64,000 bases of DNA from the NCBI GenBank assembly GCA_018651605.1, contig JABIDS010000013.1:64717-128716 (forward strand). Reading direction: 5' to 3'. The number at the start of each line of letters is the position of its first letter. Positions within the stretch are counted from its first letter, which is position 1. The notes below the pieces were generated by a model that worked only from the letters and a program-made list of their open reading frames with translations, was not told the DNA's origin and ran no database searches. This stretch comes from an archaeon. GTDB lineage: Archaea; Nanobdellota; Nanobdellia; Pacearchaeales; GW2011-AR1. The translations under genes and the position numbers were made by a program. Of the stretch, positions 43,552 through 58,252 are shown piece after piece.

Positions 43552-43819
43552 ATTAATATGAGGAGGGAGAATAAATTCTCCCTTGTTCCCCTTTTTGTAA
43601 TTTTATTAGTATTTTCCTTTTTTAAATGATTTAGGTAGTTGGATGTTTATTTTTTAATTCTGCTTTTTGTATTTGTGTTTTTGCAATCTTTGTTTTGGTA
43701 TTTAGGGTTTTGTAATCTTTGTTTTGGTAAATGGGGTTTTGTAAAGAAGGGGTTTGGAAGTGGGGGTTTGGAAAAGTGGTTTGGAAAATATATTTAAAGT
43801 GTGTTTTGTTGTGATTCTT

Positions 43820-44107
43820 ATGGTAGTTAAGAAAGATAAAATAACTAATGCGAAGATTGAGAAATATTATGATTTGAGTAGTCGGGCTTTGAAGATTGCT
43901 CGTGGGGCAGTGGTTAAGAAGCGTAAGAAAGAGGCTGATGAGATTTTTTTAATGGTGGAGTGTTATTTGTCTGATTCCTTGTATTTTAAGGAGAAAGGTG
44001 ATTTTGTTAATGCTTATGGTGCTTTGAATTATGCTCATGGTTGGTTGGATTGTGGGGCTAGGTTGAAGATTTTTGATGTTAAGGATGATAAGTTGTTTAC
44101 TGTTTGA
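43820..44107 (+). CDS. DUF357-like archaeal protein
   Basis: ALNYAHGWLDCGARLKIFDV matches the conserved end of DUF357. ATG 43820 lies 20-30 nt after TATATTTAAAG. The ORF track start at 43754 reads through the repeat region. Confidence 0.55.
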   Translation: MVVKKDKITNAKIEKYYDLSSRALKIARGAVVKKRKKEADEIFLMVECYLSDSLYFKEKGDFVNAYGALNYAHGWLDCGARLKIFDVKDDKLFTV

Positions 44108-44144
44108 ACTTATGTTTTTGTTTTAACTTAATTTTTAATTGTAT

Positions 44145-44567
44145 TTAATGTTCCCTTGCCTTAAGAAATTCTTGAACATTAACTAGAGATAGAGTGGCTC
44201 CTCCAGTTAAACAAGGATGTTCTAAGTAATTAATATGAATCATATTGTTAGTATCAACCTTCTTTGAACAATCTCCTCCAATCCCATTTTTTTCAGGACA
44301 AGCATAATGAATCTTTGAGGGATTAGTTTTTAAAAAAAATCGATCTTTTTGTGGACCACTCATTCTTTTATTTGATTCATCACCATAAACTGAGACTATT
44401 ACTTTATGAGTTAAATTTTTACCACAAGCTTCACAAGCAATAGAATATTCTTCTACCCCTTGTTCAATAGGTGTTTTTGGTAAAATACTTCCTGCTAAAA
44501 GAACAGAGCCCGCAATACTTCCAGTTCTTTTTAAAAATTCTCTTCTTGCAATTTTTTCATTTTTCAT
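44145..44567 (-). CDS. small secreted Cys-containing protein with a twin-arginine signal
   Basis: The N-terminus MKNEKIARREFLKRTGSIAGSVLLAGS carries an RREFLK Tat motif. Confidence 0.55.
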   Translation of the reverse strand: MKNEKIARREFLKRTGSIAGSVLLAGSILPKTPIEQGVEEYSIACEACGKNLTHKVIVSVYGDESNKRMSGPQKDRFFLKTNPSKIHYACPEKNGIGGDCSKKVDTNNMIHINYLEHPCLTGGATLSLVNVQEFLKAREH

Positions 44568-44680
44568 TTTAATTTTGCTCAGAACTATCTGAGGTTTTTC
44601 ACCCTTTATAAAACTATAGAAATTCCCTTTTTAAATCTTTTGGAATATTCTTTTTTAATTTTAAATAATTTAATTTACTT

Positions 44681-45046
44681 TTATTTAGAACCTTTCCTAT
44701 AAAAATCCTTAAGAGATTGTAATGATTTTTTTGCTAATTTATCCATATTATCTTTTGATAATCTTCTTGCTTTGCTTCTTTTGAGTTTTAATTTTTCTTT
44801 GGTTTTATGTTCTAGTGATTTGTGTTTATTTGTCTGAGTTAAGTAAAATCCTTCTTCTTCTTTTTGAATTGTTAATTCTGCTTGTAGTTGAAATAAGTTG
44901 TAGGAGATTGTGCTTTCTTCGGTTTTTGGATTATATGTGTGAGTTATTGTTATTTCTCCTCCCGAAGTTTCTTTTATTGTTCTTTCTAGAGAAATTCTTA
45001 ATTCTTGTGCGACGTATTGAACAGAATCATATTTCTTTTGCTTCAT
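44681..45046 (-). CDS. hypothetical protein
   Basis: ORF track only. Confidence 0.45.
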   Translation of the reverse strand: MKQKKYDSVQYVAQELRISLERTIKETSGGEITITHTYNPKTEESTISYNLFQLQAELTIQKEEEGFYLTQTNKHKSLEHKTKEKLKLKRSKARRLSKDNMDKLAKKSLQSLKDFYRKGSK

Positions 45047-45138
45047 GTTTTTAGAGGGTTTTTTCTATTAAAAACCATTGTTATTGTCTGGAATATATAT
45101 TGGATAAGGTTTAAATAAATGTTTTTGTTGTTGATAAT

Positions 45139-45825
45139 ATGAAAAAGGTGATTGTGATTAGTCTTGGTGGAAGTTTGATTGTTCAGGATAAAGTTAATTA
45201 TGGTTTTTTGAAGGATTTTCGGGATGTTCTTTTGAAGTATTCTCGGAAGTATAAGTTTGTGGTGGTTTGTGGTGGTGGGAAGCCTGCGAGAGTTTATATG
45301 AATGGGCTTGAGAGGGGAAATGTTAAGAATAAATTTTATTCTCAGTCTATGTTAGGGATTTCTATTACTCGTTTGAATGCTCGTTTTATGACTTATTTTT
45401 TTGGGAAGGATGCTAATGAGGGAATTCCTCATGATATGAAAAGGGTGAAGAATTTGTTGAGATATAATAAAGTTGTTTTTTGTGGGGCTTTGAGATATGC
45501 TGTTAATCAGACATCTGATAGTACTGGGGTTAAGCTTGCTCGTTATTTTGGTTGTGATTTTGTTAATTTGACTAATGTCAAGGGTTTATATGAGAAGGAT
45601 CCTAAAAGGTTTTCTAGTGCGAAGTTTATTTCTGAAATTTCTTATAATGATTTTTTTAAGATGGCTAATGCTGTGAAGTTTAAACCTGGGCAACATTTTG
45701 TTTTGGATCAGAGGGCTGCGAAGATTGCTAAGGATTATTCTGTTCCAGTGTTTATTATGGGTTCTTGTAAGGAGTTGGATAAGTTTTTAAGTGGGAAGCA
45801 TTTTGTTGGGACTAGTATAAGATGA
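45139..45825 (+). CDS. pyrH: UMP kinase, archaeal type
   Basis: Contains VISLGGSLIV, VVVCGGGKPAR, GISITRLNA, NLTNVKGLYEKDPK and VLDQRAAKIA, matching archaeal PyrH. Confidence 0.8.
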   Translation: MKKVIVISLGGSLIVQDKVNYGFLKDFRDVLLKYSRKYKFVVVCGGGKPARVYMNGLERGNVKNKFYSQSMLGISITRLNARFMTYFFGKDANEGIPHDMKRVKNLLRYNKVVFCGALRYAVNQTSDSTGVKLARYFGCDFVNLTNVKGLYEKDPKRFSSAKFISEISYNDFFKMANAVKFKPGQHFVLDQRAAKIAKDYSVPVFIMGSCKELDKFLSGKHFVGTSIR

Positions 45826-46241
45826 TAACTAGTAAAAATTTAAATGAAGTTCGGAAGGAAATTGTTAAGTTGAAAGCAGATGGTGAGGATGTGGTAGTTA
45901 GGGCTCAGGGTGATGATTTTAATCGGAAGATTTTTGAGAATAAAGATGTTGATGTTGTTTTTGGATTGGAGATGCATTCTCGTAGAGATTATATGAAACA
46001 GAGAGATAGTGGGTTGAATGAGGTTTTGTGCAAGTTGGCTAAGAAGAATGGGATTAAAATTGAGATTGATTTGAAAGAGATTGTTGGATTGGGTGTTGTT
46101 GAGAAGGCAAAGGCTTTGGCTAGAGTTCGGCAGAATATTCGTTTGTGTCGGAGGGTTGGTGTTGGGATTGTTGTTGAGGGTGTTGGGAAGGCAGAGAGGA
46201 GGGGTTTTATGGGTGTGTTGGGTGCGAGTAGTGAACAGTGA
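45822..46241 (+). CDS. RNase P protein component 3 (Rpp30)-like, short form
   Basis: The segments DVVFGLEMH, VLCKLAKKNGIKIEIDLKEI, RQNIRLCRRVGVGIVV and GASS resemble the C-terminal two-thirds of Rpp30. At 139 aa it is shorter than the usual ~210 aa. Confidence 0.4.
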   Translation: MITSKNLNEVRKEIVKLKADGEDVVVRAQGDDFNRKIFENKDVDVVFGLEMHSRRDYMKQRDSGLNEVLCKLAKKNGIKIEIDLKEIVGLGVVEKAKALARVRQNIRLCRRVGVGIVVEGVGKAERRGFMGVLGASSEQ

Positions 46242-46286
46242 ATGGAGTGTAATAATCTTTAAAAATGATTAATTGTTTTTATTTTA

Positions 46287-46889
46287 ATGGAATATGATAT
46301 AAGTAAACGATTTCAAAAAATATCTTCTGCTTTGAAGGATGTAAGTGATGTATTGCAATCTAATGATTTGGTGGCTAGGGTGCAAGATGGAATGCCTGCT
46401 GCAGAGTTGCATTCATTTTATAATCAAGTTGGTTTAAAGGAAGGATGGTTAAAGCCAGAATATGCAACTCCTCTTTCTGAACAAGATAAAACAAATCAAG
46501 TGAAGAATGTTGATGCTGCATTAGATGTTGTTGATTATTGGATTTCTAGATTTGAGGGTAATAAGTTTTCTGAGATGGGGAGAGAAGGACTTATTGGTGC
46601 AATGGAATCTTGTGTGGATTATGAGGGAAATAGGGGTTTGTTTGAATTAGAAAACGCTGCAGAATCTCAACATAATCAATGGAGGAGTTTTATTGGAACT
46701 TATCAAAAAGAAAGAATTACTCCTGGTCATGAAAAATTTAGAGAAGATAATTATAACCAATTTAATATGGATTATCCTGCTCTTGAAGAAAGTGTAAAAG
46801 ATCAAGATAGGTTAATTGTTGCTGTAATTAGTGATGTTGTTCTTGGTCTTGCGGATATTGGTTATGAACGGGTAATTGATACTAATTAG
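46287..46889 (+). CDS. hypothetical protein
   Basis: ORF track only. Confidence 0.5.
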   Translation: MEYDISKRFQKISSALKDVSDVLQSNDLVARVQDGMPAAELHSFYNQVGLKEGWLKPEYATPLSEQDKTNQVKNVDAALDVVDYWISRFEGNKFSEMGREGLIGAMESCVDYEGNRGLFELENAAESQHNQWRSFIGTYQKERITPGHEKFREDNYNQFNMDYPALEESVKDQDRLIVAVISDVVLGLADIGYERVIDTN

Positions 46890-46930
46890 ACTTTGAATAT
46901 TTTCTTTCAATATCTTTAATATACCAAAAA

Positions 46931-46938
46931 TTTAAATA
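46931..46938 (+). promoter_or_regulatory. TATA box TTTAAATA
   Basis: Matches the archaeal TTTAWATA consensus. It lies 22-29 nt upstream of the ATG at 46960. Confidence 0.5.
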
Positions 46939-46950
46939 ATGTTTTTTCTT

Positions 46951-47028
46951 ATGTTTCTTATGGAAGATAAAATTAGTCTGGATTTGAATGAATCAACTAG
47001 TTTTAACTTTGATTTTTACTTTTGGTAA
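46951..47028 (+). promoter_or_regulatory. candidate aromatic-rich leader ORF upstream of DAHP synthase
   Basis: ATG at 46951, or at 46960 if leaderless. Encodes M F L M E D K I S L D L N E S T S F N F D F Y F W stop. Six of the last eight codons are Phe, Tyr or Trp. A GTAAATC (47029-47035) / GATTTAC (47047-47053) hairpin and a T-rich stretch follow. Confidence 0.4.
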
Positions 47029-47117
47029 GTAAATCTGTGTTAGCCGGATTTACTGTATTATATTTTGATTATTAATAATCTATTTCTGGTTTGCATGCAA
47101 TAACATAAACTATAAAA

Positions 47118-48152
47118 ATGGCAATAGCAACATTAGAGAATATGGTTGGAGAAGAAGAAATAGTTGAAAGTCTTTTGAATAAAGGAATTGAGAAAGAGAT
47201 TTTTCTTAGTCCTGAGAAGATTCGTGGTGAGGTTTGTGTTTCTGTTGATGTTGCTAAGAAAATTATTGGGTTTCGTGGAGAGATTGAGAATATTTTGGAT
47301 GGTAAGGATTCTAGGATGATGTTGATAATGGGTCCGTGTTCTATTGATGATTATGATGCTGCGATTGAATATGCTTTTAAATTGAAAAAATTGTCTGATG
47401 AAGTTAGTGATAAATTTTTGATAGTTATGAGAACTTATTTTGAAAAGCCTAGAACAAGTGTTGGATGGGAAGGATTGATTATTGATCCTGATAGGGATGG
47501 GAGTAATGATGTTGAGAAAGGGTATTTGATGGCTAGGAAATTGTTGAGAGAGATTAATGAAATTGGTTTGCCTTGTGCTAGTGAACTTTTGGATATTACA
47601 AGTAATGAGTATATTGGTGATTTGATTTCTTATGCTGCGATAGGTGCGAGAACTTCAGAATCTGCGCCTCATAGGAAAATGGGTTCTAGTTTAGCTGTTC
47701 CTGTTGGTTTTAAGAATGCTACTAGTGGAAATTTGAAAATTGCTGTGAATGCTGTTAAATCTGCTAATGCTGAGCATATTGTTGAGACGAGTTATGGTAG
47801 GGCTTTGAGTAAAGGGAATGATTATGCTCATGTTATTTTAAGAGGAGGGTCTAATGGTGTAAATTATGATAAGGTTAGTGTTGAGGAGGTTGTTGGATTG
47901 TTGAAGGAGGAGGGTTTGAGAACTTCAGTGATTGTTGATTGTAGTCATGCAAATTCTGGAAAGGATTATAGGAAACAAGGAGAGGTTTTTAGAGAGGTTT
48001 TGGGGATGAATAAGAAGGAAGTGGTTGGAGTTATGTTGGAGTCGTATTTGGTTGAGGGTGTAGGGGATGAATATGGGCAGTCGAAGACTGATGAGTGTGT
48101 GGGGTGGGAGGAGAGTGAGGGATTAGTAAAGGGAGGATTTGAAGTGTTGTGA
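47118..48152 (+). CDS. aroG: 3-deoxy-7-phosphoheptulonate (DAHP) synthase, type I-alpha (AroF/G/H-like)
   Basis: Contains LIMGPCSIDD, MRTYFEKPRTSVGWEGLIIDPD, IGARTSESAPHR, VGFKN and DCSHANS. Confidence 0.9.
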   Translation: MAIATLENMVGEEEIVESLLNKGIEKEIFLSPEKIRGEVCVSVDVAKKIIGFRGEIENILDGKDSRMMLIMGPCSIDDYDAAIEYAFKLKKLSDEVSDKFLIVMRTYFEKPRTSVGWEGLIIDPDRDGSNDVEKGYLMARKLLREINEIGLPCASELLDITSNEYIGDLISYAAIGARTSESAPHRKMGSSLAVPVGFKNATSGNLKIAVNAVKSANAEHIVETSYGRALSKGNDYAHVILRGGSNGVNYDKVSVEEVVGLLKEEGLRTSVIVDCSHANSGKDYRKQGEVFREVLGMNKKEVVGVMLESYLVEGVGDEYGQSKTDECVGWEESEGLVKGGFEVL

Positions 48153-48186
48153 GTAATCTTATAAACTTAGCAATCTATGAATTAAA

Positions 48187-49728
48187 ATGCCAGAAAAACA
48201 AAAAGATAAACCGGATATGCAGAAACTTGTGGAATCTCTTTCGCCTAATGAGAGAAGAATTGTTGGTTTTTTGGAAGTTGGGGATTTGGATAAACTGCGA
48301 GATGAGAGTGGTTTGGATAAGACATCTCTTTTGCGGGCTTTGGAGTTTTTATCTAATAAAGGAATTTTAACTTTGAGAAGTAAGGAGGAGAAGGTTGTTG
48401 TTTTGAGTATTAATGGGTTGAATTATAAAAGAGATGGTTTGCCTGAGAGAAGGCTTGGAGGAGTTGTTGTTGAGAAAAATTCTTTATCTTTAATGGATGC
48501 TAAGAAAGAGTCTGGATTGAGTGATAATGAGTTTAAGGTTGCTCTTGGAGCTTTGAAGAAAAGGGCGTTGATTAATATTGTTAATGGAAATATTGTTTTG
48601 GTTGGTGGGAAAGATGTTTTTGTTGAGAAGACTTTGGATGAGAAGTTTTTGGAGTTGTTGCCTAAAAAGTTTAGTGAGTTGGAGCCTGAGGAGAAGTTTT
48701 CTTTTGATAATTTGAAGTCTCGGAAGAATATTGTTGAGATTGAGAATAAGAAGATTGTTGAGTTTGATTTGACTGATTTGGGTAAGGAATTGGTTAAAGT
48801 TGATTTGACTTCTTTAAAAAATATGATTGAGAGTGTTACTCCTGGATTGATTAAGAGTGGGAGTTGGAAAGGTAAGAAGTTTCGGAGGTATGATATTACT
48901 TCAGATGTTCCGAAGATTTCTGGGGGTAAGAGGCATTTTGTGAATCAGGCGACTGATTATGCAAAGAGGGTTTGGTTGGATATGGGTTTTAAGGAGATGA
49001 GTGGTTCTTTGATTCAGTCTGGGTTTTGGAATTTTGATGCTTTGTTTACTGCACAGGATCATCCGGTTCGTGAGATGCAGGATACTTTTTTTATAAATGG
49101 TGAGGCTGAGTTGCCTGCTTCTGGAGTTGTTGAAAAGGTTAAGAAGGCGCATGAGGGGGGGATTGATGGTTCAAAAGGTTGGCAGTCTTCTTGGTCTGAG
49201 GATGATGCTAAGAAGGTTTTATTGAGGACACATACAACTTGTTTGTCTGTTCAGACTTTGAAAAAGATTGCTGAGAAAAAGGAGTTTCCTGCTAAGTATT
49301 TTGCTTTGGGTAAATGTTTTAGAAATGAGACTGTTGATTGGAGTCATGGGTTTGAGTTTAATCAGACCGAGGGAATTGTTGTTGATGAGAATGCGAATTT
49401 TCGGCAGTTGCTTGGTTATTTGAAAGAGTTTTTTAAGAAAATGGGTTATGAAGAGATTCGGATTCGTCCTGCGTATTTTCCATACACAGAGCCGTCGCTT
49501 GAGATAGATGTTTTTCATCCTGTTCGTAAGGAATGGGTGGAGTTGGGTGGTGCTGGGATGTTTAGGCCAGAAGTTACGATTCCAATGTTTGGGAGGCATA
49601 TTCCTGTTTTAGCTTGGGGTCCTGGTTTTGATAGAATTATTATGGAGTTTTTTAAGGTAGAGGATTTGAGGGATATGTATAAAAATGATTTGAATGCTCT
49701 TCGTGAGAAGAAGGTGTGGAGAAAATGA
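48187..49728 (+). CDS. pheS: phenylalanine--tRNA ligase alpha subunit (archaeal type)
   Basis: Has N-terminal winged-helix repeats and a class II core: HPVREMQDTFF, LLRTHTT, GKCFRNE, FNQTEG and GAGMFRPEV. Confidence 0.9.
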   Translation: MPEKQKDKPDMQKLVESLSPNERRIVGFLEVGDLDKLRDESGLDKTSLLRALEFLSNKGILTLRSKEEKVVVLSINGLNYKRDGLPERRLGGVVVEKNSLSLMDAKKESGLSDNEFKVALGALKKRALINIVNGNIVLVGGKDVFVEKTLDEKFLELLPKKFSELEPEEKFSFDNLKSRKNIVEIENKKIVEFDLTDLGKELVKVDLTSLKNMIESVTPGLIKSGSWKGKKFRRYDITSDVPKISGGKRHFVNQATDYAKRVWLDMGFKEMSGSLIQSGFWNFDALFTAQDHPVREMQDTFFINGEAELPASGVVEKVKKAHEGGIDGSKGWQSSWSEDDAKKVLLRTHTTCLSVQTLKKIAEKKEFPAKYFALGKCFRNETVDWSHGFEFNQTEGIVVDENANFRQLLGYLKEFFKKMGYEEIRIRPAYFPYTEPSLEIDVFHPVRKEWVELGGAGMFRPEVTIPMFGRHIPVLAWGPGFDRIIMEFFKVEDLRDMYKNDLNALREKKVWRK

Positions 49729-51488
49729 CAATAATAACATTTGATAGAAAAGAATTGGAAAAGAAAATTGGAAAGATAGATGAGAAGATGGAGGAAAGGA
49801 TAAGTATGTTTGGGACTGTAGTTGAGGATTTGACTGAGGATGAAGTTAGTGTTGAGGTTTTTCCGAATCGTCCTGATTTGCTTTCGTTTGGTGGTTTTGT
49901 TCGTGGTTTGCTTGGGTTTTTTGGGAAGGGTAAGGGTTTGAAAAATTATAATGTGAATAAACCTTTGGAGAATTATAATGTTGTTATTGATAAATCTGTT
50001 AAATCTGTTCGTCCATTTACAGCATGTGCTATTGTTAAGAATTTGAAGTTGGATGATGCTCGGATTAAGGAGATGATTGATATTCAGGAAAAGTTGCATG
50101 GTTCTTATGGGCGGAATCGTAAGAAGTTGGCGATTGGGATTTATCCTTTGGAAGAGATTAAGTTGCCGATTAAGTTTTTGGCTCGTAAACCTGAGGAGAT
50201 TAAGTTTCAGCCGTTGGAGTTTCCTCGTGCGATTAATGGTAGGCAGATTTTAAGTCAACATCCTGCAGGAAGGGAGTATGGAGATTTGTTGAAAGGTGCT
50301 GAGGTTTTTCCAATTTTTGAAGATGCGAATGGAGAGATTTTAAGTATGCCGCCTATTATTAATTCTGAGAAAACTGGGAAGGTTGGTTTTGAGACAAAGG
50401 ATGTTTTTATTGAGTGTTCTGGTTTTAATTTAGATTATTTGAAAAAGACTTTGAATATGATTGTTTGTGCTTTGGCTGATATGGGTGGAGAGATTTATGA
50501 GATGGAGATTGTAGATAAGAGGAAGTGGGTTTCTCCTGATTTGTCTAGTGATAAGATGGAGTTTTCTTTAGATGATTTGAATAAGACTTTGGGTTTGGAG
50601 TTGAGTGTTAAAGAGGTTAAGGGTTATTTGGGTAAAATGGGGATTGGATATGGGGAGGGGGTTGCTTTGGTTCCTTGTTATAGGACTGATATTTTGCATG
50701 AGATTGATTTGAGTGAAGAGGTTGCTATTGCTTATGGTTATGAGAATTTTGAGGCAGAGATTCCTGAGATTTCAACTATTGGTTGTGAGGATAAGGTTGC
50801 TGTTTTGAAAAGGAGAGTTGATGAGATTTTGGCTGGATTGGGTTTGTTAGAGGTTTCTAGTTATCATTTGTCTACTAAAGATGTTCAGTTTAAGAAGATT
50901 TGTAAAAAGGGTTTTTTGGATGAGGTAATCGAAGTTTTGGATTCTAAGACTGAGAATAATATTTTGAGGACTTCGTTGTTTGCTAATAGTATGAAAATTT
51001 TGAGTGAGAATTCTGATGCTTCGTATCCGCAGAAGATTTTTGAATTGGGGAAGGTTTTTGGGAAATGTGAAGGTGGTTCTGGGGGTGAGAGTGGTGATGG
51101 TTCGCAATTACAACGCCCAATACCCCACCCACCCACCCGTATTGGGGGCGTTGAAATTGCTACTAGTGGTGTTGGAGGTATTGTTGAGAAAGAGAGATTG
51201 TGTATTTCGTTGTGTGGTGAGGGAATGAATTTTACAGAGTTGAAACAGGGTTTGGATTATTTGATGAGGATGTTGGGGGTGGAGTATTCTTTGGAAGAGG
51301 TGGAGAATGAGTCGTTTATTGTGGGGCGGTGTGGGAGTGTTGTGGTTGGTTCTAAAGGTGAAGAAGGCGTTGGTGAGAAGAGGGTTGTGGGTGTTATGGG
51401 GGAGGTGGGGTTGAGTGTGTTGAAAAATAATAAGATTAAGATGCCGGTGGTTAGTTTGGAGTTGGATTTGAGTTGTTTTGTAGAATAA
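49716..51488 (+). CDS. pheT: phenylalanine--tRNA ligase beta subunit (archaeal type) with a Gly/Pro-rich insertion
   Basis: Contains VEVFPNRPDLLS, the B3/4 and B5 domain patterns, and IFELGKVF. It overlaps pheS by 13 nt. The insertion lies at about 51063-51190. Confidence 0.9.
   Translation: MEKMTIITFDRKELEKKIGKIDEKMEERISMFGTVVEDLTEDEVSVEVFPNRPDLLSFGGFVRGLLGFFGKGKGLKNYNVNKPLENYNVVIDKSVKSVRPFTACAIVKNLKLDDARIKEMIDIQEKLHGSYGRNRKKLAIGIYPLEEIKLPIKFLARKPEEIKFQPLEFPRAINGRQILSQHPAGREYGDLLKGAEVFPIFEDANGEILSMPPIINSEKTGKVGFETKDVFIECSGFNLDYLKKTLNMIVCALADMGGEIYEMEIVDKRKWVSPDLSSDKMEFSLDDLNKTLGLELSVKEVKGYLGKMGIGYGEGVALVPCYRTDILHEIDLSEEVAIAYGYENFEAEIPEISTIGCEDKVAVLKRRVDEILAGLGLLEVSSYHLSTKDVQFKKICKKGFLDEVIEVLDSKTENNILRTSLFANSMKILSENSDASYPQKIFELGKVFGKCEGGSGGESGDGSQLQRPIPHPPTRIGGVEIATSGVGGIVEKERLCISLCGEGMNFTELKQGLDYLMRMLGVEYSLEEVENESFIVGRCGSVVVGSKGEEGVGEKRVVGVMGEVGLSVLKNNKIKMPVVSLELDLSCFVE
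51116..51146. repeat. hairpin with a (CCCA)3CCC loop inside the pheT coding sequence
   Basis: The stem pairs CCCAATAC (51116-51123) with GTATTGGG (51139-51146). The loop is CCCACCCACCCACCC (51124-51138). In frame it is translated as ...RPIPHPPTRIGG... Confidence 0.8.
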
Positions 51489-51522
51489 TAATCTTTATTA
51501 ATTGAATTTATATTTAAGTTGT

Positions 51523-51738
51523 ATGACTGGAAAATTTCGTTATGAAGAGATGAAAAATGCACCCGAGGCCTTAAGGGAATTAGGTATTAAACCAGTATTT
51601 GTTCCTAGGCAAGATGGTTATAGGGAGCATTATGCTTTCTTAGGTATTGAGAGTGATTCTGAAGTGTATAGTTGTGGAGATTTAATGCAATTAGTTGGAG
51701 AAGGTGAAAGAAGAATTTCTGAATCTCTTAGGAATTAG
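51523..51738 (+). CDS. hypothetical protein
   Basis: ORF track frame 51502-51738. ATG at 51523. Confidence 0.45.
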   Translation: MTGKFRYEEMKNAPEALRELGIKPVFVPRQDGYREHYAFLGIESDSEVYSCGDLMQLVGEGERRISESLRN

Positions 51739-51822
51739 TATTGTTGCGTCGCTCTCGCGCCCGGACAAGTCCAGGGTGCTCCGCTGTGGATTCTTGAAAT
51801 TGTGTAAAATTAGAAGTTATGT
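51739..51822 (+). repeat. intergenic GC-hairpin/tail repeat, copy E
   Basis: Sequence: TATTGTTGCGTCGCTCTCGCGCCCGGACAAGTCCAGGGTGCTCCGCTGTGGATTCTTGAAATTGTGTAAAATTAGAAGTTATG. Confidence 0.8.
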
Positions 51823-51888
51823 TTTATAGTAATGATTAATCAAAAGATTTATAAATAGATAATTAATATTTATTTTGTAAGGATTAAA

Positions 51889-52158
51889 ATGGGATTTATA
51901 AGTATAGAAAATTATGATGGGGAAAAAGGTTATGTTCCTGGGAATCCAATTAGTTTTGATGTTGTAGAAATGCGTGGAATCAAATATTTAGCACATTTTT
52001 CTGAATTATTAAATCCTGAAAGGAAGACATATAGGATTATTAATGAAGGAGAAGATACTGCTGTTGTAGTTGGGATTAAAGATAATGAAGTTCTTGATGA
52101 GTTAGGAGAAAGGCATAAGAAGATGTTAGAGGAAATAAGTGATGATGCAATATTTTGA
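51889..52158 (+). CDS. hypothetical protein
   Basis: ORF track only. Confidence 0.45.
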   Translation: MGFISIENYDGEKGYVPGNPISFDVVEMRGIKYLAHFSELLNPERKTYRIINEGEDTAVVVGIKDNEVLDELGERHKKMLEEISDDAIF

Positions 52159-52168
52159 TTTTTTATAA

Positions 52169-52930
52169 TCACTCATACTTATTCAAAAATTCAAAGATAT
52201 ATGGCTCAGATGAAGTTTTGTTTTCAGAAATAATTATTAATGTTGTTTGTTCGTCAAACTCGAGCATGTCAGTGTAAACATCTCGTTCTTCTGACATTTG
52301 GGCGACGCAGTTGATGCAAATTAGGTCTGGGTTTTCATTGTGGGATGTTGTTATGAAGTCTGCGATTTCTAGGATTTCGTAGAGTTTAGAGTTTATTGTT
52401 GTTGGGTGTTCTTTTGTTTCGAATTTTATTTTGTTGTTTTCTTTTTCAATTGTTATTGATGTATCTATTGTGAATTTGACTTGTTGTTTTTGGATTTGTG
52501 TTGTTGTTTGGAGGTTTTTGTATTCTAATGTGAAATCTCCTAGGTTTATTTTGTTTAGACATAGGCCTGTTTTTTCGTTTGTGTATTGTTGTAGTTGATT
52601 TGTTATCATTGTTTTTGTGGGCATTAGTTGTTGCCCTTGGTTATAATAGTAGGGTATGAATGCCCAGCTCATGTCAAATGCTTGAGGAGGTTTTTCGTAG
52701 TATCCTCCTTGGATTCCGATTAGTATTAGGGCTTGTTTAGATGTTTCATCTATGCAATTTATTATTGAATCTTGGATATTGTTTAGTTCTGGTTTTATGT
52801 TTGATTGAGCAAAGAATTGTTTTGAGTTTTCTGAGTCTATTTTTGATTTTCCTAAGTAGATTACTGTGCCTACTATTGCGATTATTATTATTGTGACTAT
52901 TATGAATATTGTTATTTGCCCCTTTTTCAT
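52169..52930 (-). CDS. pilin-like protein (class III signal, Q+1)
   Basis: MKKG-QITIFIIVTIIIIAIVGTVIYL. Confidence 0.5.
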   Translation of the reverse strand: MKKGQITIFIIVTIIIIAIVGTVIYLGKSKIDSENSKQFFAQSNIKPELNNIQDSIINCIDETSKQALILIGIQGGYYEKPPQAFDMSWAFIPYYYNQGQQLMPTKTMITNQLQQYTNEKTGLCLNKINLGDFTLEYKNLQTTTQIQKQQVKFTIDTSITIEKENNKIKFETKEHPTTINSKLYEILEIADFITTSHNENPDLICINCVAQMSEERDVYTDMLEFDEQTTLIIISENKTSSEPYIFEFLNKYE

Positions 52931-53028
52931 AAGATTGTTAAGTTAGGGAGGTATTTAAATTTGGTGATTGGTGATGAACAAACTTTAAATAATCTTGATT
53001 GTTTATTATTGTATTCTTAGGTGTTGAG

Positions 53029-53931
53029 ATGGTTAATGGAAAAAGAGTTAAGGTTAAAAGAAATATAAAGTCTGAAAGTAAATTTAGTTCTATGAATGTT
53101 TTGATAGGTTTAATTATTGTTATGTTTGTTGTGCAGATTGTTTCTGTTGTTTTTATTATTGGGGAGATTAATGAGTTTCGGGAGAGTGTTAATGAGTTAT
53201 CTGAAAGTTTGGATAGTACTAAGATTCAGTTGAATCAGAAGATTGATATTGTTGATAGTGATTTGCAGAATAAGGTTAATGGATTGTCGGCGAGTTTGTT
53301 GAATGTTGAGACTGATTTGAGTAAGGAGATAAGTTCTATTAAGGCTAAGACAAGTTCTGATTTTTCAGGGGTTATTGATGATGTTGTTAGTTCTGTTGTG
53401 AGTATTAGGACTGATGTTGCGCAAGGGACTGGGTTTATTATTTCTGAAGATGGTTTTGTTGTTACAAATGCGCATGTTTTGACTGGGGCGAGGTTTGCGA
53501 ATGCGATAACATCTGAGCAAACTTCTGAGAGTCTTTCATTGATTGGTTATAATGAGAATTTGGATTTAGCTTTGTTGAAGATTGATGGTAGTTATGATTA
53601 TTTGAGGTTTGATGATTCTGATGATATTAGGGTTGGTGAGAAGGTTATTGCGATTGGGAATCCTCTTGGTTTGAGTTTTTCTGTTTCAGAAGGGATTGTT
53701 TCTGCTGTTAATCGGGCTGGAGAAAATGGTATTAGGGCTTATATTCAGACTGATGCTGCTTTGAATCCTGGGAATTCTGGAGGGCCTTTGATAAATACTG
53801 ATGGGCGAGTTATTGGGATTAATAATTTTAAAATTGCAGGAGATAATATTGGGTTTGCTTTGGAGAGTAATTTTATTGTTGATGCTGTGAATGAGATTGG
53901 GATAGTGGAGATTAACAAAACAGTGGTTTAA
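53029..53931 (+). CDS. membrane-anchored trypsin-like serine protease (HtrA/DegP S1C family, no PDZ domain seen)
   Basis: Contains GTGFIISEDGFVVTNAHV (His), DLALLKI (Asp) and GNSGGPLIN (Ser). Has an N-terminal TM segment and a coiled coil. Confidence 0.8.
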   Translation: MVNGKRVKVKRNIKSESKFSSMNVLIGLIIVMFVVQIVSVVFIIGEINEFRESVNELSESLDSTKIQLNQKIDIVDSDLQNKVNGLSASLLNVETDLSKEISSIKAKTSSDFSGVIDDVVSSVVSIRTDVAQGTGFIISEDGFVVTNAHVLTGARFANAITSEQTSESLSLIGYNENLDLALLKIDGSYDYLRFDDSDDIRVGEKVIAIGNPLGLSFSVSEGIVSAVNRAGENGIRAYIQTDAALNPGNSGGPLINTDGRVIGINNFKIAGDNIGFALESNFIVDAVNEIGIVEINKTVV

Positions 53932-54103
53932 ATGAGGGTGAAAATAAAGGGGTTTGGTTAAGTTGAGATTAATCGGACGGTTGTTGGGTAGTGTTAATAA
54001 TTTCTAATAAAAATAAAACATCACACTCTCTTTTTTATAAAAAGAATTCATCATCAAAAAAGTTAAAAAAAGGATAAAAAAAATAAAAAAAATAAAATTA
54101 CAA

Positions 54104-55363
54104 TTAATAGTAACTTGTTTCTCCGAATTCTTCAGTTTCTGTAGGTCTCTTTGTTAATAGCACGATAAGGATTATCAAAAGGACTACGAATACAATTACT
54201 AGAACTACTGTCCATATTACTACGGGGTCAGCTGTTCCTGAAACTCTTGAATCTTTGTCTTCCACAATAAGTGTGAAAGGAACTGATTTAACAGAACCAG
54301 ATTCTGAGTTAACATTAACTGTAAAAGCGTGTGTACCTTCTTCTAAACTATCTGTTGCTCTAACTTTTACTTTAACTATCTTGCTAGATTCTGCACCAAC
54401 CGTAACGATTGATTCAGCTGCGTTAACAATTATTCCGTCCGTAGACTCTGGAGTAATTGTGTAAACAACCATTCTATTGTTTGGATTAACCAAAACAACA
54501 TTGAAAGTTGCTTCTTCGCCTGCTGAAATTGTTTGAGATGTAGTTCCTGGTAAGATACCAGATTCAACATCATTTACAACAATTGCTTTCTTAGCAGTAG
54601 TAGTTGTGTCATAGTTGTATGCTTGAACTTCTAATTCGTATGTACCAGGCATTACGTTTCTAGGAAGAGTTAAGTAAACTTTCCTATTTAGAGTATCTCT
54701 TATGTTGTCGTAGTCATCATCATTATCAGATGCCATATCTCCAACATAGATTCTCTTTGTAATTCCTAATTCTGGAATTGAAGCTTTCACATATACGTCG
54801 TCCATTCTCTCTCTTCCGTTGTTTTCTATAACAACATCAACAGCGATTGAACTACCAGCAGTTATTGATTGTGGTGTTTCGACAGAAAGAATTTGTAAAC
54901 TTTCAAGGCTTTTTGAAACCCTAAGAGTATATTCTTCTTCTGCTTCATCGTATCCACGTGCGTCAATTTCTACATGAAGTGTTAGATCATCAAAATCTAA
55001 TTCATCCAAGTCTAAACTTGAAGGGTATTTCATAGAGAACTTTGCTCTATATCCACTAGTACCTTCGTCAACAACATCTTGGTCAACTACGGTTCTAGTT
55101 TCTTCTTTGTAACCTTCAAGGTAAACAGTAATAGAAACATCTTCAACTTCTTCATTTGCAGAAAGAGTTGAGCTTGCAGAATATTCAACTAAAATTGGAA
55201 CAGTATTAGATACTTGTCCAATATAGTTTTTACCAGTGTCTAATTCTACACCATTAACCTTTACAAGGTCAATTGTTGCAAAATCAGCTGCCGCAACTAT
55301 GTTCAAAGCAAAAGCTAAAACGAATAATGCTATAAAAGAAACGATTATTGTCTTACTTTTCAT
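54104..55363 (-). CDS. cell-surface (S-layer-like) protein with a signal peptide and C-terminal TM anchor
   Basis: The signal peptide is MKSKTIIVSFIALFVLAFALNIVAA. T/V/E/D-rich beta-strand repeats follow, then the C-terminal anchor VVIWTVVLVIVFVVLLIILIVLL with a basic stop-transfer sequence. Codon composition is visibly less skewed than in neighbouring genes. The function is inferred. Confidence 0.5.
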   Translation of the reverse strand: MKSKTIIVSFIALFVLAFALNIVAAADFATIDLVKVNGVELDTGKNYIGQVSNTVPILVEYSASSTLSANEEVEDVSITVYLEGYKEETRTVVDQDVVDEGTSGYRAKFSMKYPSSLDLDELDFDDLTLHVEIDARGYDEAEEEYTLRVSKSLESLQILSVETPQSITAGSSIAVDVVIENNGRERMDDVYVKASIPELGITKRIYVGDMASDNDDDYDNIRDTLNRKVYLTLPRNVMPGTYELEVQAYNYDTTTTAKKAIVVNDVESGILPGTTSQTISAGEEATFNVVLVNPNNRMVVYTITPESTDGIIVNAAESIVTVGAESSKIVKVKVRATDSLEEGTHAFTVNVNSESGSVKSVPFTLIVEDKDSRVSGTADPVVIWTVVLVIVFVVLLIILIVLLTKRPTETEEFGETSYY

Positions 55364-55493
55364 TTGTTAAGCTATTTAAATTTAATTACTTTAGGCAAAT
55401 GAAAATGGTTTATAAGGTTTTCTGTTGTGTAGTAACTAGATAATAATTACAGATATGGGAAGTTTTAAATAGTGGACTTTGGTATACTTCGGT

Positions 55494-55781
55494 ATGGTAA
55501 ATGTGACTACGATTAAACTTCGACGGGAAACTAAAAGGCGTCTTGATAGATTAAAGGAGCATCCTCGGGAAAGTTATGAGGAAGTTTTGCAGAAGATTTT
55601 GTTTATTTTGAATTTGTCGCGGAAAAGTCCTGAGAGGGCTGCTCGGAGATTTCGTAGATTGGATGCTGTTGTTAAAAGAAAAGGAAAGAAGTATAGTGAG
55701 GTATACTCTGGTGGAGATGATGAGGTTGTGAAGGGAGATGGTGTTGAGAAAGAAGTGAAGGAAGAGAATGATAAAGAATAG
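55494..55781 (+). CDS. ribbon-helix-helix-like small protein
   Basis: MVNVTTIKLRRETKRRLDRLKEHPRESYEEVLQKIL has the pattern of RHH/antitoxin-like archaeal proteins. Confidence 0.5.
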   Translation: MVNVTTIKLRRETKRRLDRLKEHPRESYEEVLQKILFILNLSRKSPERAARRFRRLDAVVKRKGKKYSEVYSGGDDEVVKGDGVEKEVKEENDKE

Positions 55782-56535
55782 TTATGAAGAATTTGATAGG
55801 GATTTTGTTGGGAAATATACTAAGCCAAGAAGTTTTTCTGTTGGAGGAATTGAAGGAGTTGTTGTAGACCCTCATAATGAGGTTTTTGAATTTTGGTATA
55901 ATGCAATTAAGTCAAATGGAGAGGATAGTCCTGCTGTGCTTTTGCATATTGATAATCATTCTGATTTGTCTGGAGGGAAAAGAATTAGAGAGGATTGTAG
56001 GAGTGTTAGGGATTATTCTAGAAGGGATTTGGATATTGCTAGTTTTATTGCTCCTGCAGTTTATTATGGTTTGGTTGATAAAATTTATTGGTTTGATCCT
56101 AGGAATATAAATATGAAAGTTTATGGTAGAAATGGGAAAGATAATATGTTTGTAGATGTTGATTCTAATGGGGAAATTATTTGGCAAAAATGGGGTAGAA
56201 ATATTTATGCTCCAATGGATGAAGATGTCTTGAATCATAATGTTTTGAAAAAAGATTTGAAAAATTTTCAGGGCCGAATTATTTTGGATGTTGACTTAGA
56301 TGCTTTTGAATGTATTGATGATGCTGAATATAATTGGAAATTTGGTAATTATAGGTTATTAGATGGAAAAGGTAATGAAAGGTTAAATAAAACTTTGAAT
56401 TTGTTGAGAAGGTTGCCTAGACCTAGTTTGATAAGTGTTGCGCGTTCTCAAACTCCTTTTGCTTATACTCCTACTGATAGGGTTGATGGGATTGAGAAGA
56501 AGTTAATGAAAGTCTTGAAGAAAGTTTATAGTTAG
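55768..56535 (+). CDS. hypothetical protein with an HxDxHxD motif (HIDNHSD)
   Basis: ORF track. Overlaps the RHH gene by 14 nt. The resemblance to the UPF0489/arginase-deacetylase fold is only a guess. Confidence 0.5.
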   Translation: MIKNSYEEFDRDFVGKYTKPRSFSVGGIEGVVVDPHNEVFEFWYNAIKSNGEDSPAVLLHIDNHSDLSGGKRIREDCRSVRDYSRRDLDIASFIAPAVYYGLVDKIYWFDPRNINMKVYGRNGKDNMFVDVDSNGEIIWQKWGRNIYAPMDEDVLNHNVLKKDLKNFQGRIILDVDLDAFECIDDAEYNWKFGNYRLLDGKGNERLNKTLNLLRRLPRPSLISVARSQTPFAYTPTDRVDGIEKKLMKVLKKVYS

Positions 56536-56606
56536 TGGAAGTGTTGTTTTTACTTACTTATTTTTCTATCCATCAAATTTATAAACCTTTAATTCTTATT
56601 TTGGTT

Positions 56607-57170
56607 ATGGTATTAATGATTTTAACATGGGTAATAATTGCATTAGTGGCTTTGTTTATCTTAATGGCTATATATTATTTTAATAGGTTTGTGACTCTTG
56701 ATAATCGGATAAAGAATAGTTTGGCGCAGATTGATGTTCAACTTAAGAAAAGGGCTGATTTGGTTCCGGCTCTTGTTAAGATTGTTAAGGGTTTTGCTAA
56801 GCATGAGAAATCTATAATGGAAGATGTTACAAAGGCTCGGGCAGAGATGTTGAAGGCGGGGAATAATATGGGGGAGAAGGTTAAGGCTGGGGATCAACTT
56901 CAGAATGCTTTGAAATCTATTTTTGCAATAGCTGAGAATTATCCTGATTTAAAATCTAATCAAAATTATTTACAGTTGCAAACAGAATTATCTGCAATTG
57001 AAGATAAGGTTGCATATGCTAGACAGTATTATAATGATTCTGTTCTTTTCTTGGATAATGCATCTCAACAACTTCCAGGTGTTATTTTCTTTAAGATGTA
57101 TGGAAGAAAAGGGAAAGATTATTTGAAGATACCTGAGGCGAATAGAGAGATGCCTAAGATTGATTTGTGA
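56607..57170 (+). CDS. lemA: LemA-family protein
   Basis: Has an N-terminal TM segment, then YYFNRFVTLDNRIKNSLAQIDVQLKKRADLVP, YPDLKSNQNYLQLQ and ARQYYND. ATG 56607 lies about 20 nt after an AAATTTATAAAC box. Confidence 0.85.
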   Translation: MVLMILTWVIIALVALFILMAIYYFNRFVTLDNRIKNSLAQIDVQLKKRADLVPALVKIVKGFAKHEKSIMEDVTKARAEMLKAGNNMGEKVKAGDQLQNALKSIFAIAENYPDLKSNQNYLQLQTELSAIEDKVAYARQYYNDSVLFLDNASQQLPGVIFFKMYGRKGKDYLKIPEANREMPKIDL

Positions 57171-57192
57171 GATTAGATAAGTTCTATATAAA

Positions 57193-57966: not shown

Positions 57967-58063
57967 TGGAGGGTCGGGGTTGTTTGGTGGGTGATTGAGG
58001 GTTGGGGTTGTGGAGGGAGTGAAGATATTGTGGGTTGTTTAGGGAGTTGTTGAAGGGTGGGTG

Positions 58064-58190: not shown

Positions 58191-58252
58191 TATTGTAATT
58201 TAAGAGTAGTAAATGTAGAAAGATTTATAAACCCTTAATTTGTTTAAATTGT

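What the first reader, a model, noticed from the sequence alone, without database searches (positions are those of the whole stretch)
51063..51190. C-loop hairpin element sits in-frame inside pheT, within a Gly/Pro-rich insertion
Immediately after the conserved IFELGKVF motif, PheRS-beta carries about 40 extra residues (GKCEGGSGGESGDGSQLQRPIPHPPTRIGGVEIATSGVGGIVEKER). I do not expect these from archaeal PheT sequences. The DNA encoding RPIPHPPTRIG is the CCCAATAC-(CCCA)3CCC-GTATTGGG hairpin, a member of the intergenic hairpin family above. This resembles Rickettsia palindromic elements, which insert in-frame into essential genes and are tolerated as surface loops. It suggests the hairpin family is, or was, mobile. 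On the template strand it also places a very strong G4 motif inside an essential gene.
Basis: partly seen in the sequence, partly recalled or inferred. Interest (0 to 1): 0.72.

Follow-up and report, generated by a model that had tools for sequence, protein, structure and literature searches.

The report
Hairpin repeat translated inside archaeal pheT
A 57-base hairpin whose loop is four runs of C belongs to a small repeat family in a tiny DPANN archaeon; one copy sits in-frame in an essential tRNA-synthetase gene and is read through as a floppy protein loop, an archaeal parallel to the palindromic elements of Rickettsia.

Summary
pheT (49725..51488, +) carries a 57-nt imperfect hairpin (51104..51160) whose loop is (CCCA)3CCC. 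It is in frame and encodes SQLQRPIPHPPTRIGGVEIA. It lies in a loop that is 28 aa long in about 50 of 80 Pacearchaeota orthologs and 59 aa here. AlphaFold2 predicts the segment as unstructured (pLDDT <50) between two beta-strands.

Two independent assemblies carry the insert, so it is not an artefact. It is compositionally foreign: 6 of 20 hairpin codons end in C, against 2 of 568 in the rest of the gene.

The window holds exactly four four-tract C motifs (none in 300 shuffles). All four are hairpin loops on the + strand; three are intergenic. A fifth copy lies in a distant Pacearchaeote.

Orthologous sites in close relatives are empty, for pheT and for two intergenic sites. One copy is nested with 100% identical arms. 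A relative at 80% PheT identity keeps a transition-decayed remnant at the same pheT site.

My best reading is a REP/RPE-like palindromic repeat, gained and lost, tolerated as a surface loop. Its C-tract loop seems constrained. The mechanism of spread is unknown and no transposase was found. This is a new variant of a known kind, of moderate interest.

The parts
49725..51488 (+). pheT (PheRS beta subunit), 587 aa from the ATG. It overlaps the end of pheS (48187..49728).
   Evidence: ORF list. 100% match to the cluster named phenylalanyl-tRNA synthetase beta chain, with Pfam B5 and tRNA_synthFbeta. The window protein is identical to NCBI MBT4166099.1 (P0121).
51063..51182 (+). Expanded variable loop of PheT (residues 450-489 of the 590-aa ORF): a Gly/Ser-rich part plus the translated hairpin.
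   Evidence: Alignment with 22 orthologs. Segment length is 59 aa against a usual 28 aa. AlphaFold2 gives pLDDT <50 and no secondary structure, between strands 440-450 and 489-500. In PDB 8s8b_C, phmmer leaves only about 10 residues unaligned between the two matched stretches, against about 41 here.
51104..51160 (+). C-loop hairpin copy E4. Left arm 51104..51123, loop (CCCA)3CCC 51124..51138, right arm 51139..51160. One A.A mismatch (51110/51154) and a GG bulge within 51144..51148. Translated as (S)QLQRPIPHPPTRIGGVEI(A).
   Evidence: 6 of 20 codons end in C against 2 of 568 in the rest of pheT, Fisher p = 2e-8. The insert peptide is identical in an independent JGI assembly.
51124..51138 (-). 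G4-type motif GGGTGGGTGGGTGGG(G) on the template strand of pheT.
   Evidence: Reverse complement of the loop. With ViennaRNA's G-quadruplex model (RNA parameters) the minus strand folds as a stem capped by a 3-layer quadruplex, -60.0 against -24.8 kcal/mol without it. This is a prediction only.
3047..3100 (+). C-loop hairpin copy E1, intergenic. It lies between the start of the RNase HII gene (minus strand) and a tRNA gene (minus strand). Loop CCCACCCGTCCCACCC. It has the same CCC/GGGGG bulge and proximal stem as E4.
   Evidence: Identical in the independent ENA contig L155. Absent from the orthologous site in L197/L198 (RNase HII 92% identical) and L199/L200 (86%).
12093..12275 (+). Compound nested palindrome containing copy E2 (complete hairpin 12156..12209, loop CCCGCCCACCCTCCC). 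A second, 100% identical left half (about 12093..12125) and right half (about 12246..12275) flank it. Spacers carrying AAGCATTATC/GATAATGCTT separate the halves.
   Evidence: DNA fold z = -5.2. It starts 31 nt after the stop of a pilin-like ORF. The ACS-POR spacer is 107 nt with no hairpin in a relative with 81% identical POR.
31245..31303 (+). C-loop hairpin copy E3, intergenic. Loop CCCGCCCAGCCCACCC. Its sequence is related to E2 (arms TAAAnnTnATT / AATnAnnTTTA).
   Evidence: Present in the independent ENA contig L162, which ends inside the right arm. It starts 40 nt after the stop of the last pilin-like gene of a type IV pilus locus.

Best explanation
The pheT segment is one copy of a small, lineage-restricted family of structured palindromic repeats. 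Each copy is 54-59 nt: an AT-rich imperfect stem capped by a 15-16 nt loop of four C3 tracts, always C-rich on the G-rich + strand.

Shown:
- The family exists; the copies share the loop, and pairs of copies also share the proximal stem.
- Copies are present or absent at orthologous sites in relatives.
- One copy is nested in a duplicate of itself.
- The pheT copy is in frame, free of stop codons, compositionally foreign to the gene, and lies in a hypervariable loop that is predicted to be disordered.

Inferred:
- The element, or an ancestor of it, was inserted into the loop-coding DNA of pheT in the ancestor of the (window, P0002, P0003) clade.
- It survives because 57 nt is 19 codons without a stop, and because the beta-hairpin loop of the catalytically inactive PheRS-beta module tolerates extra disordered residues.
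- It has since decayed in the P0003 lineage, was deleted in P0002, and has been kept intact only in the genome that still holds other copies. This points to constraint on the C-tract loop and stem, either by the agent that propagates or homogenises the repeats or by a host use.
- Spread probably goes through the folded single strand. The + strand is the one that carries the C-to-T deamination signature, and all copies share one orientation. This would resemble REP/RAYT or IS200/IS605-type hairpin elements, but no such enzyme was found.
For: - Family and non-randomness: four four-tract C motifs against 0 in 300 shuffles, all in hairpin loops. Hairpin z-scores are -3.4 to -5.8 for E1, E2, E4 and L036.
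- E1 and E4 share CCCAWTAM-loop-KTAWTGGGGG, including the 2-nt GG bulge. E2 and E3 share arm and flank sequence.
- A fifth copy, with a loop identical to E2's, lies in L036, whose PheT is 62% identical.
- Gain and loss: E1 is absent at the orthologous RNase HII upstream site in 92%- and 86%-identical relatives. The ACS-POR spacer has no element in an 81% relative. The L036 copy is absent from the homologous window spacer upstream of DAHP synthase. The P0002 pheT has no hairpin and 3% C at the site.
- Recent copying: the nested structure has 30-33 nt arms that are 100% identical.
- Foreign composition: C-ending codons are 6 of 20 in the hairpin against 2 of 568 in the rest of the gene. Genome-wide, C at third positions is 1.4% in + strand genes.
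- Tolerated loop.
- Real sequence: two independent assemblies carry the insert peptide. E1 and E3 are also present in independent ENA contigs.
- Shared ancestry with the P0003 insert: 24 of 38 positions identical, 12 of 14 mismatches are transitions, and 0 of 2000 shuffles reach the transition-aware score. The most C-rich 20-mer of that gene is at the same site. That remnant no longer folds better than shuffles (z = +0.75). The tree is ((window, P0002), P0003).
Against: - Only four copies in 64 kb, and one in about 1.8 Mb of other Pacearchaeota loci.
- There is no target-site duplication and there are no conserved termini. At the one good empty site (E1) the element replaces 9 nt rather than being cleanly inserted.
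- Outer stems are unrelated between copies, so this is not simple copy-and-paste. Two independent palindromes will always look 'compensatory', so the apparent covariation does not show common descent.
- No transposase, integrase or HUH gene was found. This rests on Pfam scans of 40 window ORFs across 0-45 kb and on the JGI gene calls for about 27.5-73 kb.
- If the pheT copy predates the split from P0003, its perfect state under extreme C-to-T pressure argues for function rather than a passive passenger.
- Translation of the insert and enzyme activity have not been tested.
Confidence: 0.6

Rival explanations
1. The C-loop hairpin is mainly a host-selected cis-acting nucleic-acid signal. As RNA it would be a stem presenting four C3 tracts, for example a protein-binding or G-rich/Shine-Dalgarno-pairing loop, or a 3'-UTR stabiliser or terminator. 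As DNA it would be a stem capped by a G-quadruplex or i-motif that marks one strand. The pheT copy would then be kept because it acts on pheT mRNA or on local DNA metabolism. This partly overlaps with the best explanation, as REPs are both repeats and functional.
For: - The loop (four intact C3 tracts) is invariant in all five copies while the stems differ, although C is at 1.4% of synonymous sites.
- The window pheT copy is intact whereas the homologous P0003 copy lost 4 of 12 loop Cs to T. If rates were equal, keeping 12 of 12 has a probability of about 0.01; this is my rough estimate.
- E2 and E3 lie 31 and 40 nt after the stops of pilin-like genes, as 3'-end hairpins would.
- With the ViennaRNA quadruplex model, all five minus strands fold as a stem plus quadruplex.
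- A distant genome has an identical 15-nt loop.
Against: - The hairpins are not conserved at orthologous sites in the closest relatives.
- There is no common position relative to genes. E1 is upstream of a minus-strand gene, E4 is inside a coding sequence, and L036 is upstream of a plus-strand gene.
- No Rfam family matches, even at E <= 5.
- No T-tract follows E4.
- The family is nearly absent from about 1.8 Mb of related loci.
Confidence: 0.2
2. The pheT hairpin arose locally and has no link to the intergenic hairpins. It would come from replication slippage or template switching in a low-complexity Gly-rich loop that is prone to indels.
For: - The loop is an indel hot spot. P0008 has a G-rich tandem duplication there.
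- L013, L012 and L018 have unrelated inserts at the same site.
- L013 carries a further 51-nt insert with two hairpins (z = -2.9).
Against: - Local G/T-rich sequence cannot supply a run of 13 Cs.
- The core and the GG bulge match E1.
- Zero four-tract C motifs are expected by chance.
- The codon composition is foreign to the gene.
Confidence: 0.05
3. The insert is kept for a protein-level reason, with the Pro-rich peptide RPIPHPPTR acting as a binding or linker motif. The hairpin would then be incidental.
For: The segment is in frame and lies in a loop that is probably exposed.
Against: - Neither P0002 nor P0003 conserves the peptide.
- The DNA palindrome, not the peptide, is what the non-coding copies share.
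- The region is predicted to be disordered, with low confidence.
Confidence: 0.05
4. Assembly or chimeric artefact.
For: Hairpins and repeats can break or mis-join assemblies; contig L162 ends inside E3.
Against: - The same insert peptide is in two independent assemblies, the NCBI MAG contig (129.6 kb) and a JGI contig (92.8 kb). The two PheT proteins differ at 1 of 587 residues, outside the insert.
- The reading frame is preserved.
- A homologous remnant is present at the same site in six loci from at least five separate contig records carrying the P0003 gene.
Confidence: 0.02

Closest known systems
Rickettsia palindromic elements (RPE)
   Same: A family of palindromic repeats found both between genes and in frame inside essential protein-coding genes. 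They are translated as extra peptide segments compatible with the fold (review PMC10969869, read). Here there is one in-frame copy in PheRS-beta within a loop predicted to be disordered, and three intergenic copies.
   Different: RPEs are about 150 bp as first reported, number tens of copies, and fall into sequence-conserved families that each encode a conserved peptide, in an obligate intracellular bacterium. Here the element is 57 nt with 4 copies per 64 kb. Only the C-tract loop and the proximal stem are conserved, only one copy is coding, and the host is a DPANN archaeon. There is no sequence relationship.
REP/BIME elements and their RAYT (TnpA-REP) transposases
   Same: Short imperfect palindromes that are mostly extragenic. 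Structure is better conserved than sequence, orientation is strand-specific, and they are thought to act or spread as folded single strands. They can also serve as mRNA-stabilising or termination hairpins (PMC3733652 abstract; the rest from my own knowledge).
   Different: There is no conserved GTAG or CGTC tag; by reading the sequence, only the minus strand of E4 happens to start with GTAG. No RAYT gene is in the window. Copy number is low. The long conserved C-tract loop has no REP counterpart.
Prokaryotic MITEs, including archaeal ones (Sulfolobus, Haloquadratum)
   Same: Small, non-autonomous, AT-rich elements able to fold, with presence/absence polymorphism and occasional in-frame insertion in ORFs (PMC10969869).
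   Different: No target-site duplication, no terminal inverted repeats distinct from the hairpin itself, no parent IS found, and a much shorter length.
IS elements that insert into loops of REP hairpins (IS1397, ISKpn1), as an analogy for the nested copy
   Same: At 12093..12275 a hairpin's C-tract loop is interrupted by a 122-nt palindromic segment. E1 replaces the loop region of a small pre-existing hairpin (CTTTAACC-AAA-GGTTAAAG in L197). Both look like insertion into hairpin loops. My knowledge of IS1397 comes from memory and was not checked here.
   Different: The inserted material here has no transposase and contains another copy of the same hairpin. A palindromic duplication is an equally good reading.
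G4-forming recombination or regulatory motifs such as the Neisseria pilE G4 (GGGTGGGTTGGGTGGGG)
   Same: The minus strand carries an almost identical G3N1 motif. Two copies lie next to pilin-like genes. The pilE motif is recalled from memory; the Cahoon and Seifert work appears in the reference list of PMC7565180.
   Different: Here the motif is always the cap of a long inverted repeat, and it lies on the strand that is not expected to be single-stranded. There is no evidence for silent pilin copies or gene conversion. Adjacency to pilin genes holds for 2 of 5 copies only.

Membership tests
Rickettsia palindromic elements (RPE-like behaviour) | Repeated palindromic element with several copies in one genome | tested here: met
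   Four copies in 64 kb share the C-tract loop; E1/E4 and E2/E3 also share stem sequence.
Rickettsia palindromic elements (RPE-like behaviour) | In-frame insertion in a protein-coding gene at a position compatible with the fold | tested here: met
   57 nt is 19 codons with no stop, in a loop of variable length between two strands, pLDDT <50. Solvent exposure was not computed and translation was not shown.
Rickettsia palindromic elements (RPE-like behaviour) | About 100-150 bp consensus encoding a conserved peptide, with many coding copies | tested here: not met
   The element is 57 nt. Only one coding copy is in the window, and the outer stems are not conserved.
REP / RAYT system | Short (20-60 nt) imperfect palindrome, mostly extragenic | tested here: met
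   Three of the four window copies are intergenic.
REP / RAYT system | Conserved GTAG or CGTC tetranucleotide at one end | tested here: not met
   I read the flanks of all five copies. Only the minus strand of E4 begins with GTAG. The others have TAAG, AATT, GGCT and CCTA.
REP / RAYT system | Cognate RAYT (Y1 HUH transposase) gene in the genome | tested here: inconclusive
   None among 40 window ORFs scanned with Pfam across 0-45 kb or in the JGI gene calls for about 27.5-73 kb. The rest of the genome could not be read.
MITE | Target-site duplication and terminal inverted repeats derived from a parent IS | tested here: not met
   Comparing the filled and empty E1 sites shows 9 nt replaced and no duplication. 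For E4 there is only an offset 7-nt direct repeat, AGTGGTG, in G/T-rich sequence. No IS is in the window.
Archaeal bulge-helix-bulge intron | Two 3-nt bulges separated by a 4-bp helix at the exon-intron junctions | tested here: not met
   The predicted structure has a 1x1 internal loop and a single 2-nt bulge.
Canonical G-quadruplex motif (G3+ N1-7, four tracts) | Four G3 tracts with short loops on one strand | tested here: met
   Present on the minus strand of all four window copies and of L036. The ViennaRNA quadruplex model predicts a stem plus quadruplex.
Canonical G-quadruplex motif (G3+ N1-7, four tracts) | Actual quadruplex or i-motif formation in vivo or in vitro | not testable with these tools
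   Needs CD or NMR spectroscopy, polymerase-stop assays or G4 mapping.
Any described RNA family (Rfam 15) | Covariance-model match | tested here: not met
   No match overlaps any of the four copies at the gathering threshold or at E <= 5.

The most novel reading that the evidence does not exclude
The C-tract-loop hairpin is a new kind of strand-specific structured element in DPANN archaea. It would be a stem capped by an i-motif or G-quadruplex-forming loop that a lineage-specific factor recognises as folded single-stranded nucleic acid. It would home into hairpin loops, including its own, and would be actively maintained, which is why a perfect copy persists inside an essential gene against one of the strongest C-to-T mutation pressures seen. 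If so, it is neither a REP, nor a MITE, nor an RPE.
Probability: 0.15. Interest if true: 0.8.

Novelty: new variant of a known kind. Interest (0 to 1): 0.55.

Why it matters
Small palindromic repeats translated inside essential genes are a textbook curiosity of Rickettsia. Finding the same behaviour in a DPANN archaeon with a reduced genome suggests it is a general outcome when hairpin repeats meet tolerant protein loops. It also gives a concrete way for aminoacyl-tRNA synthetase loops to grow.

The family is unusual in two ways. Its conserved part is the loop, four C3 tracts that give a (GGGT)n quadruplex motif on the other strand. And it persists in a genome whose + strand has almost eliminated C at synonymous sites (1.4%). 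That contrast makes constraint on a non-B-DNA or RNA motif testable by comparing the intact copy, the decayed copy and the deleted copy in three sister lineages.

Tried and rejected
- Covariance model of the family. MAFFT aligned only the loop, not the stems, and regex plus stem scans of all fetched sequence gave only five members. I built no model.
- Exact-loop scans of IMG/VR viral contigs. There were 33 hits, all in contigs of higher GC content (38-71%) and none with a flanking inverted repeat longer than 5 bp. I treat them as chance, so there is no virus link.
- Rfam at the gathering threshold and at E <= 5. Nothing matched at the hairpins.
- The idea that the 'EDTSKKPLGV' insert of another clade (L012, L018) is also a hairpin element. 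Its folds are no better than shuffles (z = -1.4 and -0.9), so I dropped it. Only the extra 51 nt in L013 is significantly structured.
- 'Compensatory changes' between copies as proof of selection. I rejected this for the outer stems, because two unrelated palindromes always look compensated. I kept it only for the shared 5-bp proximal stem and for the E2/E3 arms.
- Bulge-helix-bulge intron. The structure does not fit.
- More of the source genome. The JGI contigs have no DNA on hand, and the NCBI proteins P0121 and P0122 are not in the position index. A genome-wide copy count and a strain-level presence/absence check for pheT were therefore not possible.
- P0008 insert. It is a G-rich tandem duplication with no C-rich hairpin.
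- attC-like reading. Only E4 has AAC...GTT near its ends and E1 does not. I did not pursue it.
Full report
**1. What is there**

The ORF at 49716..51488 (+) is pheT, with the annotated start at the ATG at 49725 (587 aa). It follows pheS (48187..49728). Its best database matches are named phenylalanyl-tRNA synthetase beta chain, from Pacearchaeota/Nanoarchaeota-type MAGs.

CCCAATAC-CCCACCCACCCACCC-GTATTGGG lies at 51116..51146, with 0 matches in 100 shuffles. The inverted repeat extends to 51104..51160, with one A.A mismatch and a two-base GG bulge where CCC faces GGGGG. As RNA it folds at -23.8 kcal/mol (z = -3.6). It spans 20 in-frame codons, SQLQRPIPHPPTRIGGVEIA.

**2. Why it stands out**

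The + strand of the whole window is extraordinarily poor in C: 10% overall and 1.4% at third codon positions of + strand genes. Minus-strand genes show the mirror image, with G3 at 5.3%. The asymmetry therefore belongs to the DNA strand, not to the gene orientation.

In pheT, 2 of 568 codons outside the hairpin end in C, against 6 of 20 inside it (Fisher p = 2e-8). The window has 106 CCC runs against 719 GGG runs. It still has four motifs of four C3 tracts, where 300 shuffles gave none.

All four motifs are loops of inverted repeats: E1 3047..3100, E2 12156..12209, E3 31245..31303 and E4 51104..51160.

**3. Not an artefact**

The window's PheT is identical to NCBI MBT4166099.1, from a 129.6-kb contig. 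An independent JGI assembly (92.8-kb contig) differs at one residue elsewhere and has the identical insert peptide. E1 and E3 were also recovered in separate ENA assemblies.

**4. Delimiting the insertion**

I could delimit the segment between YPQKIFExG and NFTE in 80 loci. It is 28 aa in about 50 of them and 59 aa in the window. The hairpin accounts for 19-20 of the extra residues. The rest is Gly/Ser-rich sequence that close relatives partly share: P0002 has +8 aa and P0003 +10 aa, and P0008 is also longer through a G-rich tandem duplication.

The site is a general indel hot spot. An unrelated clade carries 'EDTSKKPLGV', and one member (L013) has a further 51 nt with two small hairpins.

AlphaFold2, run with 23 sequences, gives pLDDT <50 and no secondary structure for residues 450-489, between strands 440-450 and 489-500. 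In the solved eukaryotic-type PheRS-beta 8s8b_C, phmmer leaves only about 10 residues unaligned between the two matched stretches, against about 41 here. This fits a tolerated, exposed loop in the catalytically inactive module of the beta subunit. I could not compute solvent exposure.

**5. The family**

E1 and E4 share CCCAWTAM-[C tracts]-KTAWTGGGGG, including the same GG bulge. E2 and E3 share arm and flank sequence.

The loop pattern CCC-N-CCC-N(1-2)-CCC-N-CCC is invariant, while the outer stems are unrelated. I do not count the outer-stem differences as covariation, because any two palindromes look compensated.

In about 1.8 Mb of fetched Pacearchaeota loci only one further member turned up. 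It is L036:197..249, upstream of a DAHP synthase-pheS-pheT cluster, and its loop is identical to E2's.

No Rfam family matches, even at E <= 5. Exact-loop scans of viral contigs gave only chance hits. No transposase, integrase or HUH gene appears in the window.

**6. Gain and loss**

- *E1.* Upstream of RNase HII, relatives with 92% and 86% identical protein have conserved flanks but no C-loop hairpin. The 92% relative has a small hairpin, CTTTAACC-AAA-GGTTAAAG, whose centre is replaced in the window by the 54-nt element.
- *E2.* The ACS-POR spacer is 107 nt in a relative with 81% identical POR and 745 nt in the window. The extra sequence is a pilin-like ORF plus the hairpins.
- *L036.* Its copy is missing from the homologous window spacer at about 47060..47117, although the leader just upstream is conserved.
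- *pheT.* The sister lineage P0002 has no hairpin and 3% C at the site.
- *Nesting.* At 12093..12275 the complete E2 hairpin lies inside a second copy whose left and right halves are 100% identical to it. The whole region forms a long nested palindrome, which shows recent copying.

**7. Age of the pheT copy**

The tree is ((window, P0002), P0003). In P0003's gene the most C-rich 20-mer lies at the same site (10 Cs; the next best window has 6).

That segment aligns without gaps to the window's loop plus right arm. 24 of 38 positions are identical and 12 of 14 mismatches are transitions, including four loop C-to-T changes. No shuffle out of 2000 reaches the transition-aware score. The alignment includes the copy-specific outer arm GTTGA[A/G]ATTG. 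That remnant no longer folds better than shuffles.

The simplest reading has four steps:
- one insertion in the clade's ancestor;
- decay along the mutational bias in P0003;
- deletion in P0002;
- an intact copy only in the genome that still holds other copies.

If the rates were equal, keeping 12 of 12 loop Cs has a probability of about 0.01 by my rough estimate. I therefore infer constraint, homogenisation or re-insertion in the window lineage. Independent insertion at a hot spot cannot be excluded.

**8. Mechanism**

- *Shown:* a structured repeat family, gained and lost, with one copy in frame in a tolerant loop.
- *Inferred:* spread or maintenance through the folded single strand. All copies have the C loop on the G/T-rich strand. 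By the standard deamination model (established knowledge), that strand is the one exposed as single-stranded DNA.
- *Predicted only:* the complementary strand carries (GGGT)3GGG-type motifs, and ViennaRNA's quadruplex model folds them as stem-capped quadruplexes in all five copies.
- *Rival host-function readings:* a 3'-end hairpin after pilin-like genes for E2 and E3, or a protein-binding C-rich loop. These remain possible and are not exclusive. The lack of positional conservation argues against a purely host-encoded regulatory element.

**9. Comparison with known systems**

In behaviour this is closest to Rickettsia palindromic elements, which are also found in frame and translated (PMC10969869). 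In form it is closest to REP-like hairpins. It fails the defining tests of each. It is too short and has no conserved coding consensus for an RPE. It has no GTAG or CGTC tag and no RAYT found for a REP. It has no target-site duplication or IS parent for a MITE.

I file it as a new variant of the known kind 'small palindromic repeats that can be translated inside genes'. It is the first I am aware of in DPANN archaea, and its conserved C-tract loop is distinctive. Interest is moderate at 0.55. The more radical reading, a maintained loop-homing structured element, is not excluded (probability about 0.15).

Noticed in passing
whole window 1..64000: Extreme, monotonic strand asymmetry. GC skew is about +0.45 across most of the window. 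C is 1.4% at third codon positions of + strand genes and G is 5.3% in minus-strand genes. The + strand is therefore depleted of C (and enriched in T and G) whatever the gene orientation, and there is no skew switch in 64 kb. Related loci (L001-L003, L158) show the same.
   Followed up: partly
window 12093..12275: Nested palindrome X-s1-X-A-Y-s2-Y. A complete C-loop hairpin lies inside a second copy with 100% identical 30-33 nt halves. The spacers carry AAGCATTATC/GATAATGCTT, and ACTCG occurs at both junctions. It looks like insertion into the element's own loop or a palindromic duplication.
   Followed up: partly
window 3161..3175 and tRNA gene 3262..3337 (-); also L199/L200: A 12-nt copy of the tRNA gene's terminal segment (TAGCGGGGGCGG) lies about 100 nt from the tRNA, next to E1. 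Relatives have the same duplicated CCCGCCCCCGCTA. In the 92% relative, the JGI contig has a block of small ORFs with faint integrase and HNH hits on that side of RNase HII. This may be an att-site remnant of an integrated element.
   Followed up: no
window 46975..47060 and L036:40..150: A conserved leader lies upstream of DAHP synthase (ACTAGTTTT...TTTTTACTTTT...AGTAAATCT-loop-AGATTTACT), with a hairpin kept in a genome whose PheT is only 62% identical. It may be a regulatory element of the aromatic amino acid / pheST cluster. No Rfam match.
   Followed up: no
L013:11327..11500 compared with L012:2894..3016 and L018:1385..1501: Another Pacearchaeota clade has an unrelated insert (EDTSKKPLGV) at the same PheT loop. 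L013 has a further in-frame 51 nt made of two 8-bp hairpins (TCAAAATC-GAAA-GATTTTGA and CAGAAATC-TTC-GATTTCTG), z = -2.9. Small hairpin insertions in this loop may be recurrent.
   Followed up: partly
window 51336..51377: A second variable loop of PheT (SKGEEGVGEKR). It is absent in most orthologs and much longer in P0003 (SRGEDGKIVDGVEGGSQGETDVGGEKGGGR). It is Gly/Glu-rich and has no hairpin.
   Followed up: no
window 11628..12062 and 21828..31205: E2 and E3 start 31 and 40 nt after the stops of pilin-like ORFs with class III signal-peptide-like N-termini. E3 closes a type IV pilus locus: PilB-like ATPase, two T2SSF genes, about five pilin-like genes and a VWA protein. The relative with 81% identical POR lacks the isolated pilin-like ORF before E2.
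   Followed up: partly
window 48187..51488 compared with L003 and the P0002 contig: pheS and pheT overlap by 13 nt in the ORF list here. The two closest lineages have four to five small genes (UMPH-1, MazG-like and unknowns) between them.
   Followed up: no
L162:1051..1148: An independent ENA contig ends inside the right arm of E3, so the hairpin or repeat appears to break short-read assembly.
   Followed up: no
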